The translations under genes and the position numbers were made by a program. From Eledone cirrhosa (lineage: Eukaryota): a DNA stretch of 64,000 bases. Position 1 is the stretch's first letter. Each line of letters starts with the position of its first letter. Location: positions 7,130,001-7,194,000 of the forward strand of contig OZ024759.1 of NCBI GenBank assembly GCA_964016885.1, given 5' to 3'. Below, one piece after another: positions 3,260-52,569 of this stretch. The notes beneath the pieces were generated by a model, which saw only the letters and a program-made list of their open reading frames with translations, was not told the origin of the DNA and ran no database searches.

Positions 3260-3876
3260 AGATGGCAACATTTACATAAGGCACAATAACATGTTTATTG
3301 GATCTGTGTACAAGAAAGCTGTATTTCGCGAGTACACCGACATTACTTTCAACGAAAGAATAGAAAGGGATAGCAGCACAGTACATCTTGGAATTTTGGG
3401 TCCAATCATTCGAGCAGAGGTTGGGGAAACTATTGAGGTCTATTTTAAAAACAAGGCCTCCAGACCCTACTCTATGCTTCCCCACGGCCTACATTACATG
3501 AACAATGAAGATGGAGAGCTTTTCAACAGCAATAAATCGACCCCTGCCAATATGGTTAAGCCTAACACTACGTTCAAATATACCTGGAATGTTCCAATGA
3601 GCGCTGGGCCAAGTGCAAGGGACCCTAATTGTATTTCGTGGCAATATACTTCAGCTGTGGACCCGATAAAAGACGTATACAGTGGACTTATTGGTCCTAT
3701 AATTATCTGTCGAAAGGGGACATTGAATAACGCAGAGAAACGAAGGGACATAGATAAAGAGTTTGTGTTCCTGTTTTGGGTCTTAGATGAGAACCAAAGC
3801 TGGTATTTTGAGGAAAATATCAAACATTATGCTCCAGGTCGAGTGAACGGGACCCGTGATGACGACTTCGAAGAGA
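3260..3876 (+). CDS. Ceruloplasmin/hephaestin-like multicopper ferroxidase, internal exon (cupredoxin domain 5 into 6)
   Basis: ttttcag acceptor, A|gtaagt donor; GSVYKKAVFREYTD, HLGILGPIIRAEVGETIEVYFKNKASRPYSMLPHG, YTWNVP..GP...DPNCISWQYTSAVDPIKDVYSGLIGPIIICR and EFVFLFWVLDENQSWY are typical CP/HEPH motifs. Confidence 0.95.
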
Positions 3877-4115
3877 GTAAGTATAGCAACACTTTAATCC
3901 AGGGCCACCCATCCTATTTTAAAATATACAGTATGGCTTAGTGGTTAGAGCATTGGGCTTGCAATCGAAAGGTTGTGAGTTCGATTACTCAGCTGTAGAA
4001 ATGAGATGATAGGGACTGGGTCCCTATCATTAAATTACCCAAGACACCTCCAACGAGATATACCTACCACCTAAGCCATGTATATATTTATATATGTATG
4101 TATATGTATGTATAT

Positions 4116-4455
4116 GAAGGCACATGGCTTAGTGGTTAGAGCATTGGCTTTGCAATCGAAAGGTTGTGAGTTCAATTCTCAGACCGGGTGATGTGTTGTT
4201 TCCTTGAGCAAGACACTTTATTTCACATTGCTCCAGTTTACTCAGCTGTAGAAATGAGATGATAGGGACTGGGGTCCCTATCATTCCACTGTGAAGTGGT
4301 CGTGGAGGTGCAAAAAAGCACCCAGCACTCACTGTAAATGAGGTTGGTGTTAGGAAGGGCATCCAGCTGTAGAAATCAAGCCAGAATCAGTTCCCGTCCC
4401 ACCCTTGCAAGCAGGGAAAAGCGGACGTAAATTGATGATGATGATGATGATGATG
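4116..4455 (+). mobile_element. tRNA-headed CORE-type SINE family A with RTE-like 3' tail and (GAT)n end
   Basis: A box TGGCTTAGTGG, B box GAGTTCAATTC, CORE-like CCTTGAGCAAGACACTTTATTTCAC..CTCAGCTGTAGAAATG; truncated extra copy at 3933-4030. Confidence 0.9.
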
Positions 4456-4529
4456 TATATATTTATATATATATATATATATGTATGTATATATATATGT
4501 ATATATGTATGTATATATGTATGTATATG

Positions 4530-4560
<31 letters not shown>

Positions 4561-4611
4561 ACGTATGTATGTATACGTATATATATATCTATATATATAT
4601 ATATATTTATG

Positions 4612-4685
<74 letters not shown>

Positions 4686-4687
4686 GG

Positions 4688-4755
<68 letters not shown>

Positions 4756-5236
4756 TGTATATATAGTATATTTTGCAATACACTGTATGCTTAATTAAAA
4801 ACATTTTGAAGACCTTGCGCTATTGTTTTAAAGTAGTGACTATGTCACTTACTTCTATTTTCAGCAAACAAGGGGAGATAAGCTCACAGAGCTCTGTTTC
4901 ATACAGTTGGTACTTATCAAAGCCTAGCACTTCCCTTGTTTGCTGAAAATTATGAATGTTGGATTCTTATAGAATTCCAGTAATAATCTATATATACATT
5001 CATATATATATATCGCTATTTCAGAGTACAAATCTAATTTTCAATTTTTGCAGTTCCTAATTATTACTGGAATTCTATAAGAATCCAACATTCATAATTT
5101 TCAGCAAACAAGGGAAGTGCTAGGCTATTTTTAGTGGTGTAAGTTTGTGAGACACGCTAAGATACCATGTGTGCTATTATATATAGCACACTATTCAGTT
5201 TCTTAATATACTTAGAAGTGTCTAGGATATTAATTC

Positions 5237-5314
5237 ATCACCCACTGATGAGCTTGAATTGGTAATTTTATTCACAATTAACATTGCGAAACAACACCAA
5301 GTTGTCTGGGTGAT
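5237..5314 (+). ncRNA. Type I hammerhead ribozyme
   Basis: Stem I ATCACCCA/TGGGTGAT (8 bp), CTGATGA 5245-5251, stem II closed by GC/GC, GAAA 5288-5291, stem III ACAAC/GTTGT, cleavage triplet GTC (C5306). Confidence 0.85.
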
Positions 5315-5575
5315 TGGTAGTTACCACAATTCCGTTTGTATTTATTTTCTTGCTTTTTTTTATTAAATTGAGACAAGCAAACCCAATTGTGTATAGTTAG
5401 TATTCTTTACACCTTAACGAATCTGGTCCCTTACGATTTGAACACATATATCTATATATCTGTGTTCGTTTTTCTTTTATATTCTATTATAATATACGGC
5501 TCAGAAATATCTCTTTCTTAGAGCTATTTTATTGTAAGAGACTATTTTGAGTTCCTAACTCAATATATACCTTTG

Positions 5576-5623
<48 letters not shown>

Positions 5624-5769
5624 TATTTTCCGTAGTATTGTAATATGAATATTACACACAGTAGATGGACAGCTCACGTAGAGTTTGCTCGACGGTTCCA
5701 GTTGTAGTTTCAAAAGTAATCCGGAGAAAATAGAAGGATTTAAATGGATACAGTTCAGTTAAAAGGAAT

Positions 5770-5890
5770 TTATTGACACGTGTTTCAATAACAGTTACAT
5801 AACCTGAAAACAGCTGCTATCTACAAAGTATTAGTTATGCAGACATTCAATATTTCAATGTTATTATCAACTGTCATTTCATCAGAATAA
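5770..5890 (-). ncRNA. Hammerhead motif with very long stem II
   Basis: Minus strand: ttatt-CTGATGA-aatgacagtt...aactgttatt-GAAA-cacgtGTC-aataa; palindromic stem III ACACGTGT. Confidence 0.7.
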
Positions 5891-6050
5891 TTTTATTGAG
5901 AACCTGTTTGGTTTTTATAGAGAATATTAGGAGGGAGGGGTGAAGTTGTTAGAAGAATAGTTAAGGGAGTGGTTTTTTGATAGCAGTGAGAATTTTTGGT
6001 GGCAGTGAGTAATTAGATTCCCATCTGTTGTTTTGACATTTTTATATTCC

Positions 6051-7677
<1,627 letters not shown>

Positions 7678-7681
<4 letters not shown>

Positions 7682-7860
7682 TGTTTCTACTTTTGGCACA
7701 AGGCCAGCAATTACCCAGTGTATTACTGGTACTTTATTTTATCGACCCCATAAGGATGAAAGGCAAAGTTAACCTCGGCGGGATTTGAACTCAGAATGGC
7801 AAGGGCTGTAACTCTATGCGTCAAAGCATGACGTCCGACTCTCTACCGATACTGCCAAAT
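7678..7860 (-). mobile_element. SINE family B
   Basis: Matches the reverse complement of 2780-2965. Confidence 0.88.
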
Positions 7861-9082
7861 AATATGAGAAAATAACATTGTTCAATAATGACCATATGTT
7901 TAGTTTAAAAACTTGAGATCAATATACCAAAATCTGAGTTAAATCTTTCAAAAAGTACCCTATTTATAAAAATCATGGATACAAATATGTATATATATAC
8001 ACACATATGTACGTCCTGAAAATAGAAATTATGTCTACTCAAGCCAATAATATAGACACACAAAGCGCAAATGATTTCACTTGATCACTGCTATACACTC
8101 CTTGTGTTATAAAAAATTCACAGTATATATACATAAATATACGATTAATATTCATGTCCTCATATATACGATTACCGTTCATGTATTTAATATTATGCAT
8201 ATCTGCAACATACATCACATATTCACACACACATATATACACATACATATGTATAAATAAATATCTGCGTGAGTCCTCCAGCATCGCTCATGTATATATA
8301 CAGACATATATACAAACACATAAATAGACCCTATAACACTTTTATATGCATGTTAATACACACATATGGCATTTGTATAGAGATAATCAAATATCAATAT
8401 ATTAATATAGAAATATCAAAGCATTAAATATCTTTAAAACACTATAGAGTATCTCAAGTTAAAATAATATGTTTTATATATTTAGTATAGAAATTTATCC
8501 TACCTATATCTCAAACAAGATATTGAAAGGGTAGACTTATGAAAGTTATTAGAAGCTATCAGAGTCAAAACAAGTAAAAAAATAAAAATAATTTAAAAGA
8601 TTTAGAAGACCCAGTGATTCTACGGATAACCTTATATTTAGTATAGAAATTTATCTTACGTATATTTTATTTAATACATTGGGAGCATATACATTTTAGA
8701 GTAGTTTATTATATCCTTGTTTATATTTAGGAAGAAAGTTTAAAATGAAAAAGGTGAAGGAATCTAATGATTTATCGACAGGTTTCATATATTAACTAAA
8801 TTTCTTAATTAATTATACTACATTTTAAATTTATATTTATATTTAAACGTTGAGTTCAATCTATGTCTGCAGCAACTGAATAAATTGCTCCTTAAATTAA
8901 GGGAATTTTTGGACTTTAATATAAAGAATATTTCTTCTATACAAAGATCACAATTTTCTGAAAAGGAATTAAAAGGAGTAGCTTATGAAATAATATTCCA
9001 ATTCATCGAATATTTAATATTATCTCGTTTAAGGTGCCAGAGTAGGCTAGATAGCGAAGTTGAAGATTTTTTGTTTGGATCA

Positions 9083-10025
9083 TATTATATATCTATGTCC
9101 CATTCATGAATATTGATATTTATATTTTTATTATTCATTTCATATAAATTAACTCAACTTAATATGACATGACGTAAAGTTGTCACTATCTCCCCCTCTC
9201 TCTATATAGTATTTTCTCTCTCTTGAGTTTTTCTATCTGTATGATTACTTATTATCTCTCTGTTGCTTTCCTTTGTTTTTCTTATTTCTTCCTTTTTTCT
9301 TTCTTTTTTATTTCCTCCTATCGATTTATCTCTTTCTTTTCTACATACATTTCTCTCTCTCTCCGATATTTCTCCAGGTTTTCTTTTTCTCTCTCTCCTT
9401 CTTTCTCTCTCTCCGTCTTTTTTTTTTTTTTTTTGCTTTCTTTCTCTCCGTCTTTTTCTAATTGTGCTTAACACTATAACTAATAAAATAATATAAACAT
9501 TTCACTATCCAGACAGCTTCCAAAAATAATGGTTGCATTTAATAGGGTACGTCAAAATTATTTATAAAACTGTTTATATATTGTATTTTGTCTGATGAAG
9601 GCATACCATATTTTAATTTGGTATCCCTGAAATATGTATAATGAAATAAATATGGTTTTATAAATATAGTTTCCATTTATTAATATCGTATATCTACTCC
9701 AAAAACTTGTCGAGTGCTTTATATCAGTTATAAAATATTTACTTGTTGTATCCCAACAATTTTAAATAGAACTTTTGCATGTATATATATATATATATAT
9801 ACGATATTAAACAAATGGAAACTATATTTATAAAACCATATTTATTTCATTATACATATTTCAGGGATACCATATTAAAAATATGGCATGCCTTCTTCAG
9901 ATAAAATACAATATATAAGCAGTTTTATAAATAAATTTGACGTACCATATTGATCAATGTTGATTGCTTTATATCAGTTATAAAATATTTATTCGTTGTA
10001 ACCCAACAATTTTAAATAAAACTTT

Positions 10026-10030
<5 letters not shown>
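9083..10030 (+). mobile_element. Non-coding Penelope-like repeat with hammerheads at 9584-9648 (+) and 9843-9908 (-)
   Basis: tattttgt-CTGATGA-aggcatacc..ggtatccct-GAAA-tatgTA-ta-atgaaata; followed by an inverted partial copy (CTGAAGA variant) after a TA tract. Confidence 0.72.
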
Positions 10031-10079
<49 letters not shown>

Positions 10080-10135
10080 CATATATATATATAGTGTATT
10101 TCTTTCTTTTCTTTTTTTTCTGTTTTTTTGTAAAG

Positions 10136-18164: not shown

Positions 18165-18692
18165 TATATCAAAGGTATATATTGAGTTAAGAACTCAACA
18201 CAGTCTCTTACAATAAAATAGCTCTAGGAAAGACATTTTTCCGGGCCGTATATTATAAATGAATATAAAAGAGAGATAAACACTGATATATAGATATATG
18301 TGTTCAAATCGCAAGGGACCAGATTCGCTAAGGTGTAAAGAATACTAACTATAGACAGAAGTATATTAAGAAACTGAATAGTGTGCGTATATATAACAAC
18401 GCACATGGTATCTGAACTTAGCGTGTCTCACAAACTTACACCACTAAAAATAGCAGCCAGGTTTATTCGACGTTTGAACTAGCTCAACAAATTAACGGAG
18501 CCGAATATATCAAAAGTAAATATTGAGTTAGGAACTCAAAATAGTCTCTCACAATAAAATAGCTCTAAGAAAGAGGTTTTTCCAAGCCGTATATTATAAT
18601 AGAATATAAAAGAAAAACCATCACAGATATATAGATATATGTGTTGAAATCGTAAGGACCAGATTCGCTAAGGTGTAAAAAATACTAACTAT
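18165..18692 (-). mobile_element. Head-to-tail fragments of the repeat family that carries the 5237 hammerhead
   Basis: Reverse complement matches 5125-5220 and, twice, 5395-5580. Confidence 0.7.
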
Positions 18693-18891
18693 AGCAAATC
18701 TGGTCCCTGCTATCCAGGATCCCAGATGACCCCACAGCAAGGCATGAGGGAAACCTAAGGGCAGCAGCAACGAACACCCTCTTACACCAGTGGCCAACCA
18801 ATACAGGCTGAAGATAAAATGTGTAGCAACAAGGGCGGTGCCCCAGCATGGCCTCAACCAGATGGCTGGAACAGGTAAAAGCGTAAAAGAG

Positions 18892-30860: not shown

Positions 30861-30877
30861 CATCCTGGAGCTGGGAG

Positions 30878-31130
30878 TGCCGTGTTAGTTCTTTTAAGTT
30901 GGTATTTAAAAGAGGAATTGTGATTATAAAATCTTGCTTTAAAGGAAGTGGAAGTGGCACCAAAATAGGTAAAAGAATTAGTACCAGTTATAACCTTACA
31001 TTCATACACTAAATTTTTATCAAGACATTGGTTATTAAGAGGACATTTAGTTCTAACAGGGCAATTACAATTACGATTAGAGAAATTACCAGAGTTATTA
31101 ACAAGTGACCTAGTATTATTTACAGAAGGA
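30878..31130 (-). mobile_element. Penelope-like element GIY-YIG endonuclease relic
   Basis: CNC..KCPLNNQCLDKNLVYECKV..TYFGATSTSFKARFYNHNSSF..TAL, a Cys-rich linker plus VY..YFG..R..H pattern. Confidence 0.8.
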
Positions 31131-52290: not shown

Positions 52291-52569
52291 GTGTCTTGCT
52301 CAAGGAAACAACACTTTATTTCACATTGCTCCAGTTCACTCAGCTGTATATATATATATATATATATATATACAGCTGAGTGAACTGGAGCAATGTGAAA
52401 TAAAGTGTTGTTTCCTTGAGCAAGACACTTTATTTCACATTACTCCAGTTCACTCAGCTGTAGAAATGAGATGATATGGACTGGGGTCCCTATCATTCCA
52501 CTGCAAAGTGGTCATGGAGGTATGGACTGGGTGCTTTTTTGTCATGACACCTACACTGTCCACTTTACA

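What the first reader, a model, noticed from the sequence alone, without database searches (positions are those of the whole stretch)
5237..5314. Fully stemmed type I hammerhead, sense within the multicopper-oxidase intron
Unlike the minimal motifs, this one has a perfect 8-bp stem I, a 5-bp stem III with a 5-nt loop, an intact core and a GUC triplet, so it could fold as a monomer. It is on the transcribed strand of intron 3877-10135 and could cut the pre-mRNA after C5306 (inference).
Basis: partly seen in the sequence, partly recalled or inferred. Interest (0 to 1): 0.75.

Follow-up and report, generated by a model that had tools for sequence, protein, structure and literature searches.

The report
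Pseudoknotted hammerhead in a retrozyme copy
The self-cutting RNA motif is really there, but it is one of several hundred copies carried by a small jumping repeat and is probably not a switch of the gene it sits in; its one unusual trait is an RNA knot, kept across related repeats, that likely props up a very weak stem.

Summary
The hammerhead is real, but it belongs to a mobile repeat, not to the gene. All stems and the core are at the stated places.
(1) It lies in a 456-bp truncated copy (5124-5579) of a non-coding 506-bp unit. The genome has 932 pattern hits (0 control). Copies form partial tandems and end at two fixed sites beside (AT)n, as Penelope-type insertions do: a retrozyme.
(2) Stem II has 2 bp and a 32-nt loop. 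For 5237-5314 alone the hammerhead fold is about 5 kcal/mol above an inactive rod.
(3) The 5' flank (5228-5237, outside the finding) pairs with loop II (5255-5264). This pseudoknot covaries across 13 subfamilies (permutation p 5e-5) and holds in 37 of 41 held-out copies.
This copy shows no sign of selection (18 of 34 close copies are equally intact), so control of the ceruloplasmin-like gene is unsupported. Cleavage and expression are untested. The scan noted Penelope-type retrozymes in this genome and pseudoknotted PLE hammerheads in other genomes before; it had no note on this family.

The parts
3600..3876 (+). Exon of a ceruloplasmin/hephaestin-like multicopper oxidase gene (5' edge of the exon not determined)
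   Evidence: phmmer to ceruloplasmin E 5e-69; GT at 3877
3877..10135 (+). Host intron, filled with repeats
   Evidence: GT..AG, frame continues into 10136; downstream exon matches Cu-oxidase_2
4743..5126 (.). Neighbouring, different two-armed repeat with a decayed minimal hammerhead; meets the retrozyme copy at a 3-nt microhomology (5124-5126)
   Evidence: 2546 candidates, 125 matches from 40 scored; arms mapped on 7 loci; minimal cores in 4 of those 7 loci
5124..5579 (+). 5'-truncated, less-than-one-unit copy of a 506-bp non-coding retrozyme unit (unit positions 324-506, then 1-271, counted from the cut site)
5178..5199 (+). TATA-like run (5178-5185) and initiator-like TCAGT (5195-5199); possible internal promoter, speculative
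   Evidence: TCAGT 40-62 nt upstream of the core in 64 of 132 copies, against 3 and 0 in two control windows; CCAGT or TTAGT in other subfamilies, absent in one. Homologous sequence, so weak
5228..5237 (+). Pseudoknot 5' strand (directly upstream of stem I; 5237 is shared with stem I). U5230 is a copy-specific change from C, turning a C-G pair into U-G
5237..5244 (+). Stem I, 5' strand
   Evidence: 3 of 7 counted pairs change on both sides
5245..5251 (+). Catalytic core CUGAUGA
5252..5287 (+). Stem II (2 bp) with 32-nt loop II; 5255-5264 is the pseudoknot 3' strand
5288..5306 (+). GAA, stem III (5291-5295 with 5301-5305), loop III, C17 at 5306; predicted cut between 5306 and 5307
   Evidence: 3 of 5 stem III pairs change on both sides
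5307..5314 (+). Stem I, 3' strand
5316..5325 (+). Small conserved 3' hairpin (3 bp, 4-nt loop)
   Evidence: U-A to C-G change in 6 of 36 rows
5580..5620 (.). (AT)n run at the element's 3' end; likely insertion target
   Evidence: TRF 5583-5620; AT run follows 109 of 142 fixed ends, background 9.7%

Best explanation
This type I hammerhead is part of a truncated copy of a 506-bp non-coding repeat with hundreds of copies, likely inserted by Penelope-type enzymes into an (AT)n run of the intron, and it is predicted to reach its cutting fold only through a pseudoknot between its 5' flank and loop II. Shown: the motif; the repeat family; the circularly permuted, partly tandem copies with two fixed 3' ends at (AT)n; covariation of stems I and III and of the pseudoknot across subfamilies. 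Inferred: in the active ancestors the pseudoknot held stems I and II side by side, as loop-loop contacts do in other hammerheads, and blocked a rod-like misfold. Cleavage then released unit-length RNA from multi-unit transcripts, the unit was probably closed to a circle, and a Penelope-like reverse transcriptase/endonuclease copied it starting at one of two internal sites. For this copy: dead on arrival as a mobile unit (one ribozyme, 52 bp short of a unit) and drifting neutrally. It may still cut a minority of pre-mRNAs after C5306, without a selected role.
For: Family: 47 matches from 40 scored of 1995 candidates; 173 hits within one mismatch of a 24-mer, 63 exact, 0 control; 932 hits to the wider pattern, 0 control. 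Unit: hammerhead spacing 506, 507 and 515 bp in three tandem loci; 33% GC; longest stop-free frame 71 codons. Ends: of 191 pieces that stop inside the unit, 73 end at unit position 180-190 and 69 at 262-280; an AT run follows 109 of these 142 against 9.7% background; 5' ends are scattered. Partial tandems, inverted 5'-truncated copies and (TA)n targets are described for PLEs (PMC8557442, passages), as are two internal RT start sites and AT-rich cleavage (PMC11167929, parts 1-2 of 4). Pseudoknot: own-subfamily duplex mean -9.2 against -7.0 kcal/mol across subfamilies, permutation p 5e-5; three rival pairings and one control p 0.13-0.29 (78 of 109 copies, 13 hand-made groups). In a 36-row alignment 94% of cells pair and 3 of 7 pairs change on both sides; slid controls 24-42%. 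Held-out copies of the two most distant subfamilies keep it: 20 of 23 and 17 of 18 at or below -5 kcal/mol. With the two knot strands tied up, stem III probability rises from 0.07 to 0.97. Such pseudoknots with 1-2-bp stem II are shown to drive fast cleavage elsewhere (PMC3088659, passages). Neutrality: core plus stems 32/1188 changed against 251/7845 elsewhere, p 0.42.
Against: No cleavage or expression data. Even with the knot, simple energy sums leave the full active fold about 6 kcal/mol above the rod (-14.5 and -6.5 against -27.2; pseudoknot and core contacts are not modelled). Only stems I and III form when the knot strands are tied up; stem II stays at 0.0. This copy's knot is weaker than its closest sibling's (-7.5 against -9.9). 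Subfamily D has a weak knot (-4.4), and some cross-subfamily pairings are as good as own ones (J flank with the window's loop -9.2 against -8.8). Shuffles ignore relatedness; 'pairs with a change on both sides' alone was reached by 70 of 500 shuffles. The strand windows were chosen after seeing the data. No copy contiguous with an autonomous PLE was found in 156 loci. Circular RNA is inferred; multi-unit linear templates would give the same copies.
Confidence: 0.75

Rival explanations
1. The copy has been co-opted: it cuts the multicopper-oxidase pre-mRNA at 5306 during transcription and tunes the gene's output, like the CPEB3 intronic ribozyme.
For: Sense orientation; 0 of 36 core and stem positions changed against 7 of 239 elsewhere in this copy. 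The cut site is 4.8 kb before the 3' splice site, 1.2-1.4 min at the mammalian polymerase rate quoted in PMC10919898 (passages), which describes such tuning for CPEB3.
Against: 0 of 36 is what drift gives at about 3% divergence; 18 of 34 close copies are equally intact and 13 of 34 also keep all 9 knot pairs. The copy's one change in the ribozyme's pairing weakens the knot. The intron also holds hammerhead relics at 5885 (-), 7173 (-), 9592 (+) and 9900 (-). 42-44% of Xenopus retrozyme copies are intronic, and 8 of 9 tested dimers did not cleave (10.64898/2026.07.22.740005, parts 2-3). At the mussel retrozyme's rate of 0.1/min (PMC7229834) only about 12% would be cut in that time (my arithmetic).
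Confidence: 0.07
2. The ribozyme design is real, but this copy (or the family) cleaves only with help, from a protein or a second copy, and is otherwise trapped in the rod fold, so nothing is cut in the intron.
For: The rod is the predicted ground state in 4 of 4 sequence lengths tested. The nested fold is 0.6-10.6 kcal/mol above the ensemble in all 14 copies tested. The Anolis PLE hammerhead cleaved only with PLE protein (PMC11167929). Compatible with the retrozyme origin; it differs only in activity.
Against: Loop III is not palindromic and helix III is 4-6 bp in the subfamily examples, unlike dimer-type motifs. A conserved pseudoknot is the mark of fast monomeric hammerheads (PMC3088659).
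Confidence: 0.3
3. The stretch is the terminal repeat (pLTR) of a 5'-truncated autonomous Penelope-like element, not an independent retrozyme unit.
For: The insertion footprint is that of PLEs, and retrozymes are proposed to derive from pLTRs (10.64898/2026.07.22.740005). PLE-type RT and GIY-YIG fragments (my reading of the translations) lie within a few kb of some copies.
Against: Going upstream, long copies run back into the unit's own 3' part and a second hammerhead at 506-515 bp, never into an ORF. None of the PLE-like fragments is contiguous with a copy (flanks of only 0.7-3 kb).
Confidence: 0.08
4. The main conserved partner of loop II is loop III (kissing pair), not the 5' flank.
For: Loop II and loop III are complementary over 5-8 nt in most subfamilies, with a G-C to G-U to A-U series.
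Against: Not own-subfamily specific (p 0.13); lost in subfamilies E and J and in copies lacking three loop III bases. Stems II and III stack end to end, so the two loops lie far apart in the active fold (PMC10085705, passage). It fits an inactive fold better.
Confidence: 0.08

Closest known systems
Metazoan non-LTR retrozymes (Cervera and de la Pena 2020, PMC7229834: passages and part 3 of 6; review PMC7761336: parts 2-3 of 6; Li, Clavereau and Pollet preprint 10.64898/2026.07.22.740005: parts 1-3 of 5)
   Same: Non-coding, low-GC unit with one type I hammerhead, head-to-tail copies, many dispersed monomers, co-occurrence with PLE-like sequences; length within the 51-972 bp range of the preprint.
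   Different: Unit of 506 bp against the typical 170-400; mostly 1-1.5-unit dispersed copies rather than long arrays; helix III of 5 bp and stem II of 2 bp with a 32-nt loop and a base-paired pseudoknot instead of loop 1-loop 2 contacts. Circular RNA not tested.
Pseudoknot-stabilised hammerheads (Perreault et al. 2011, PMC3088659: passages), including the human C10orf118 intronic hammerhead and Rfam RAGATH-1 (RF03152)
   Same: 1-2-bp stem II with a helix joining the stem I side to loop II; about 40% of that survey's hammerheads use one.
   Different: Here it rides on a high-copy animal retroelement and has a long knot (up to 10 bp here, 13-14 in subfamily J) in a very long loop II. The RAGATH-1 score is far below threshold (19.8 against 56.3).
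Hammerheads of Penelope-like elements (Cervera and de la Pena 2014, PMC4209133: parts 1-2 of 4; Frangieh et al. 2024, PMC11167929: parts 1-2 of 4; Craig et al. 2021, PMC8557442: passages)
   Same: Insertion footprint: partial tandems, inverted 5'-truncated arms, two fixed 3' ends, (TA)n targets. A large helix III is described for fungal and protist PLE hammerheads.
   Different: Animal PLE motifs are minimal, dimer-type, with long helix II and no helix III. The two ends here are about 85 nt apart, not the 30-40-nt tail. No ORF.
Conserved intronic ribozymes (CPEB3, PMC10919898: passages; amniote RECK and C10orf118, via PMC3088659 and PMC6765202 passages)
   Same: Sense-strand ribozyme motif in an intron of a protein-coding gene.
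   Different: Those are conserved across species; this is a recent repeat copy about 3% from its family majority, with no sign of selection.

Membership tests
Type I hammerhead ribozyme | Core CUGANGA, GAAA, NUH triplet | tested here: met
Type I hammerhead ribozyme | Three helices, stem I open, supported by covariation | tested here: met
   95.8% of cells paired, 10 of 24 pairs change on both sides; stem II is invariant, so it is neither supported nor refuted by covariation
Type I hammerhead ribozyme | Stem I-stem II tertiary contact | tested here: met
   pseudoknot by covariation; not probed experimentally
Type I hammerhead ribozyme | Active fold is accessible as a monomer | tested here: inconclusive
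   nested fold 5 kcal/mol above the ensemble; the knot removes the rod but cannot be scored properly
Type I hammerhead ribozyme | Self-cleavage | not testable with these tools
   needs an in vitro assay
Rfam hammerhead families | Score above the gathering threshold | tested here: not met
   RAGATH-1 19.8 against 56.3 bits; no other hammerhead family at E up to 10
Non-LTR retrozyme | Non-coding unit of a few hundred bases, GC under 45-50% | tested here: met
   506 bp, 33% GC, longest stop-free frame 71 codons
Non-LTR retrozyme | Head-to-tail units each with a type I hammerhead | tested here: met
   family level: L006, L010, L092. This copy is a sub-unit monomer, so it would not count as 'active' under the preprint's two-unit rule
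Non-LTR retrozyme | Accumulates as circular RNA | not testable with these tools
   no RNA holder listed
PLE-mobilised element | Partial tandem and inverted 5'-truncated copies, fixed 3' ends, (TA)n targets | tested here: met
Autonomous Penelope-like element | RT plus GIY-YIG ORF between pLTRs | tested here: not met
   no contiguous ORF in 156 loci with 0.7-3 kb flanks; no genome-wide partner search was made
Domesticated intronic ribozyme | Purifying selection on the motif in this copy | tested here: inconclusive
   0/36 against 7/239 changes, as drift predicts; low power
Domesticated intronic ribozyme | Conserved at the orthologous site in other species | not testable with these tools
   no relatives held for G000; contigs of X1-X3 do not span the junctions

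The most novel reading that the evidence does not exclude
The middle of loop II is a built-in switch strand. Paired with the 5' flank it forms the pseudoknot and the RNA cuts; when the loop II region pairs instead with loop III and the 3' strand of stem III, the RNA locks into an uncuttable rod, which lets the circle survive and lets reverse transcriptase read through. Sense copies such as this one would then cut host pre-mRNA only during a short window of transcription, so hundreds of insertions could act as weak, timed intron cutters.
Probability: 0.15. Interest if true: 0.62.

Novelty: new variant of a known kind. Interest (0 to 1): 0.3.

Why it matters
For the host gene, little: intronic retrozyme copies are common and this one shows no selection. 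For RNA biology it adds an animal retrozyme family whose hammerhead replaces loop-loop contacts by a long pseudoknot, with natural compensatory variants from 13 subfamilies that form a ready mutational series. Standard descriptors and Rfam models score this form poorly, so it is likely under-counted in animal genomes. I did not find it described in the searches, but one key paper was not available and no supplements were read.

Tried and rejected
Expression: no RNA holder listed; no evidence either way. DNA contigs of X1-X3 (one sample, one study) confirm the repeat family and the missing 5' stretch, but no listed piece spans this copy's junctions, so presence or absence of the insertion could not be read.
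Rfam over the whole window gave AT-repeat artefacts and tRNA-like matches, and no hammerhead among the 150 of 156 rows shown.
One search's 10,173 hits are not this family: most listed hits are another family in 466-469-bp arrays whose cut triplet, by my reading, is not the GUC of my pattern. I use the 932, which itself includes a few double counts and at least two unrelated hits (L064, L093).
Other pairings tested and not own-subfamily specific: loop III with loop II (p 0.13), 3' flank with loop II (p 0.29), 5' flank with 3' flank as an extended stem I (p 0.24), upstream control (p 0.28). A 5' hairpin at 5217-5231 pairs in 94% of cells with no compensatory change, so it is unsupported.
Cofolding two copies gave no active dimer, only the rod.
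A pattern for other stem II base pairs found 1 hit.
A covariance model found no second intact member in the window and could not be run on the whole genome.
The bacterial promoter scan is irrelevant here.
An autonomous partner was sought only in fetched flanks.
Lunse et al. 2017 on PLE hammerhead variants was not held. No supplements were opened; those of PMC7229834 (mussel motifs), PMC4209133 and PMC3088659 may show similar knots.

Full report
Observation. The motif is as described: stem I 5237-5244 with 5307-5314, core 5245-5251, GAA 5288-5290, stem III 5291-5295 with 5301-5305, 5-nt loop III, GUC with C17 at 5306. It lies on the sense strand of intron 3877-10135 of a ceruloplasmin-like gene. 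It is the only one of 9 hammerhead-like cores in the window with a 5-bp stem III. Rfam gives only a sub-threshold RAGATH-1 match.

It is part of a repeat. The 251 bases around the motif have 1995 candidate matches in the genome; the 40 scored gave 47 matches at 86-100%. A 24-mer has 173 hits within one mismatch, and a relaxed pattern 932 against 0 control. Homology covers 5124-5579. Copies with two hammerheads give a unit of 506-515 bp, 33% GC, with no frame over 71 codons. The window copy holds unit positions 324-506 and then 1-271, so it lacks 52 bp and has a single ribozyme.

How copies were inserted. Among loci L001-L148 (4 duplicates dropped), 191 pieces stop inside the unit: 73 at position 180-190, 69 at 262-280, 49 elsewhere. 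An AT run follows 109 of the 142 fixed ends against 9.7% background, and 5' ends are scattered. Many loci have an inverted arm at the 5' end. This matches the PLE footprint of partial tandems, inverted truncated copies and (TA)n targets (PMC8557442, passages) and internal RT starts at two sites (PMC11167929, parts 1-2). Copies read through the cut site, so the template was a ligated circle or an uncut multimer (inference). No copy was contiguous with an RT or GIY-YIG frame in 156 loci. This fits a non-LTR retrozyme (PMC7229834; preprint 10.64898/2026.07.22.740005). Earlier scan notes reported the same footprint for other families in this genome. I reached the reading before opening them and took the preprint lead from them.

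Folding problem. For 5237-5314 the lowest-energy fold is a rod in which the core and stem II pair with loop III and the 3' strand of stem III. The nested hammerhead is 5.0-5.2 kcal/mol above the ensemble at four lengths, and 0.6-10.6 above it in 14 family members.

Pseudoknot. The ten bases upstream of stem I (5228-5237) are complementary to the start of loop II (5255-5264), both beginning at the tops of stems I and II, where a stem I-II contact is expected. I sorted 78 of 109 fetched copies by hand into 13 subfamilies. Own-subfamily duplexes average -9.2 kcal/mol against -7.0 across subfamilies (permutation p 5e-5; shuffled -3.0); three rival pairings and a control show no such specificity. 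In an alignment of 36 hand-picked copies the 7 counted knot pairs are 94% paired, 3 change on both sides and 3 on one side, and slid controls reach 24-42%. Copies fetched afterwards from the two most distant subfamilies keep it: 20 of 23 in K, where both strands have different letters, and 17 of 18 in J, with a 13-14-bp helix. K flank with K loop scores -7.9; window flank with K loop -2.6. Tying up the two strands removes the rod and raises stem III to 0.97.

Limits of the pseudoknot evidence. Subfamilies are related, the windows were chosen after seeing the data, subfamily D has a weak knot (-4.4), some cross pairings equal own ones, and energy sums still leave the full active fold about 6 kcal/mol above the rod. 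Pseudoknots of this kind with 1-2-bp stem II are known and needed for fast cleavage in other hammerheads, including a human intronic one (PMC3088659, passages).

Is this copy special? No sign of it. Of 34 close copies (the window's included; chosen as best hits, so biased towards intact), 26 have an intact core, 18 intact core and stems, and 13 also all 9 knot pairs. Core and stems are not better conserved than the rest (2.7% against 3.2%, p 0.42), so copies decay neutrally after insertion. The window copy has 0 of 36 changes in core and stems, 1 of 18 in the knot (C5230U, -7.5 against -9.9 kcal/mol in L002) and 7 of 239 elsewhere. The intron holds four other hammerhead relics on both strands. 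In Xenopus 42-44% of retrozyme copies are intronic and 8 of 9 tested dimers did not cleave (preprint, parts 2-3). The cut site is 4829 nt from the 3' splice site, about 1.3 min at mammalian rates (PMC10919898, passage); at the mussel retrozyme's 0.1/min about 12% would be cut (my arithmetic; rates in this animal are unknown). That a cut intron can still be spliced is recalled, not checked. No RNA data were available.

Verdict. A real type I hammerhead design in an ordinary, probably inert retrozyme insertion. My odds: mobile-repeat origin 0.95; the knot is the stem I-II contact 0.75; this copy cleaves measurably as a protein-free monomer with its flank 0.5; selected control of the gene 0.07. 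Retrozymes and pseudoknotted hammerheads are both known. Their combination in this family was not found in my searches (Lunse 2017 not held, no supplements read), and the scan has no note on this sequence, though it noted pseudoknotted PLE hammerheads in other genomes. That the host is a cephalopod comes from earlier scan notes and was not tested. Novelty: new variant of a known kind. Interest 0.3.

Noticed in passing
window 4743-5579, junction 5124-5126: Between two (AT)n runs the right arm of a different two-armed hammerhead repeat stops just before its own core and continues as the retrozyme copy over a 3-nt microhomology. Either a template switch between two element RNAs in one insertion or a later deletion between neighbours.
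   Followed up: partly
window 18165-18694 (-): Second copy of the same family: unit positions 84-413 joined to 81-272, a partial dimer from which the whole hammerhead (about 175 bp) is missing.
   Followed up: partly
window 7069-7613 and 9149-9696; cores at 7173 (-), 9592 (+), 9900 (-): Large inverted arms (95-98% complementary) carrying minimal hammerheads in the same intron, around a GIY-YIG-like fragment at 8917-9081 (-): probably a two-armed PLE insertion.
   Followed up: no
window 5885 (-), 52002 (-), 56508 (+), 61550 (+), 62542 (-): Further minimal hammerhead motifs.
   Followed up: no
L160-L182 (subfamily K): The commonest core is CCGAUGA (8 of 23) rather than CUGAUGA (6 of 23), so a U4C variant appears to have been propagated.
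   Followed up: partly
   Followed up: no
window 30875-31081 (-): GIY-YIG-like fragment similar to the PLE-type frame in L105 (E 4e-11).
   Followed up: no
window 3927-3998 and 4125-4182: tRNA-like matches in the same intron, probably tRNA-derived SINE heads (31.8 and 27.5 bits).
   Followed up: no
window 52311-52408: Perfect inverted repeat around an (AT)n run; its arm matches the SINE-like sequence at about 4219-4252.
   Followed up: no
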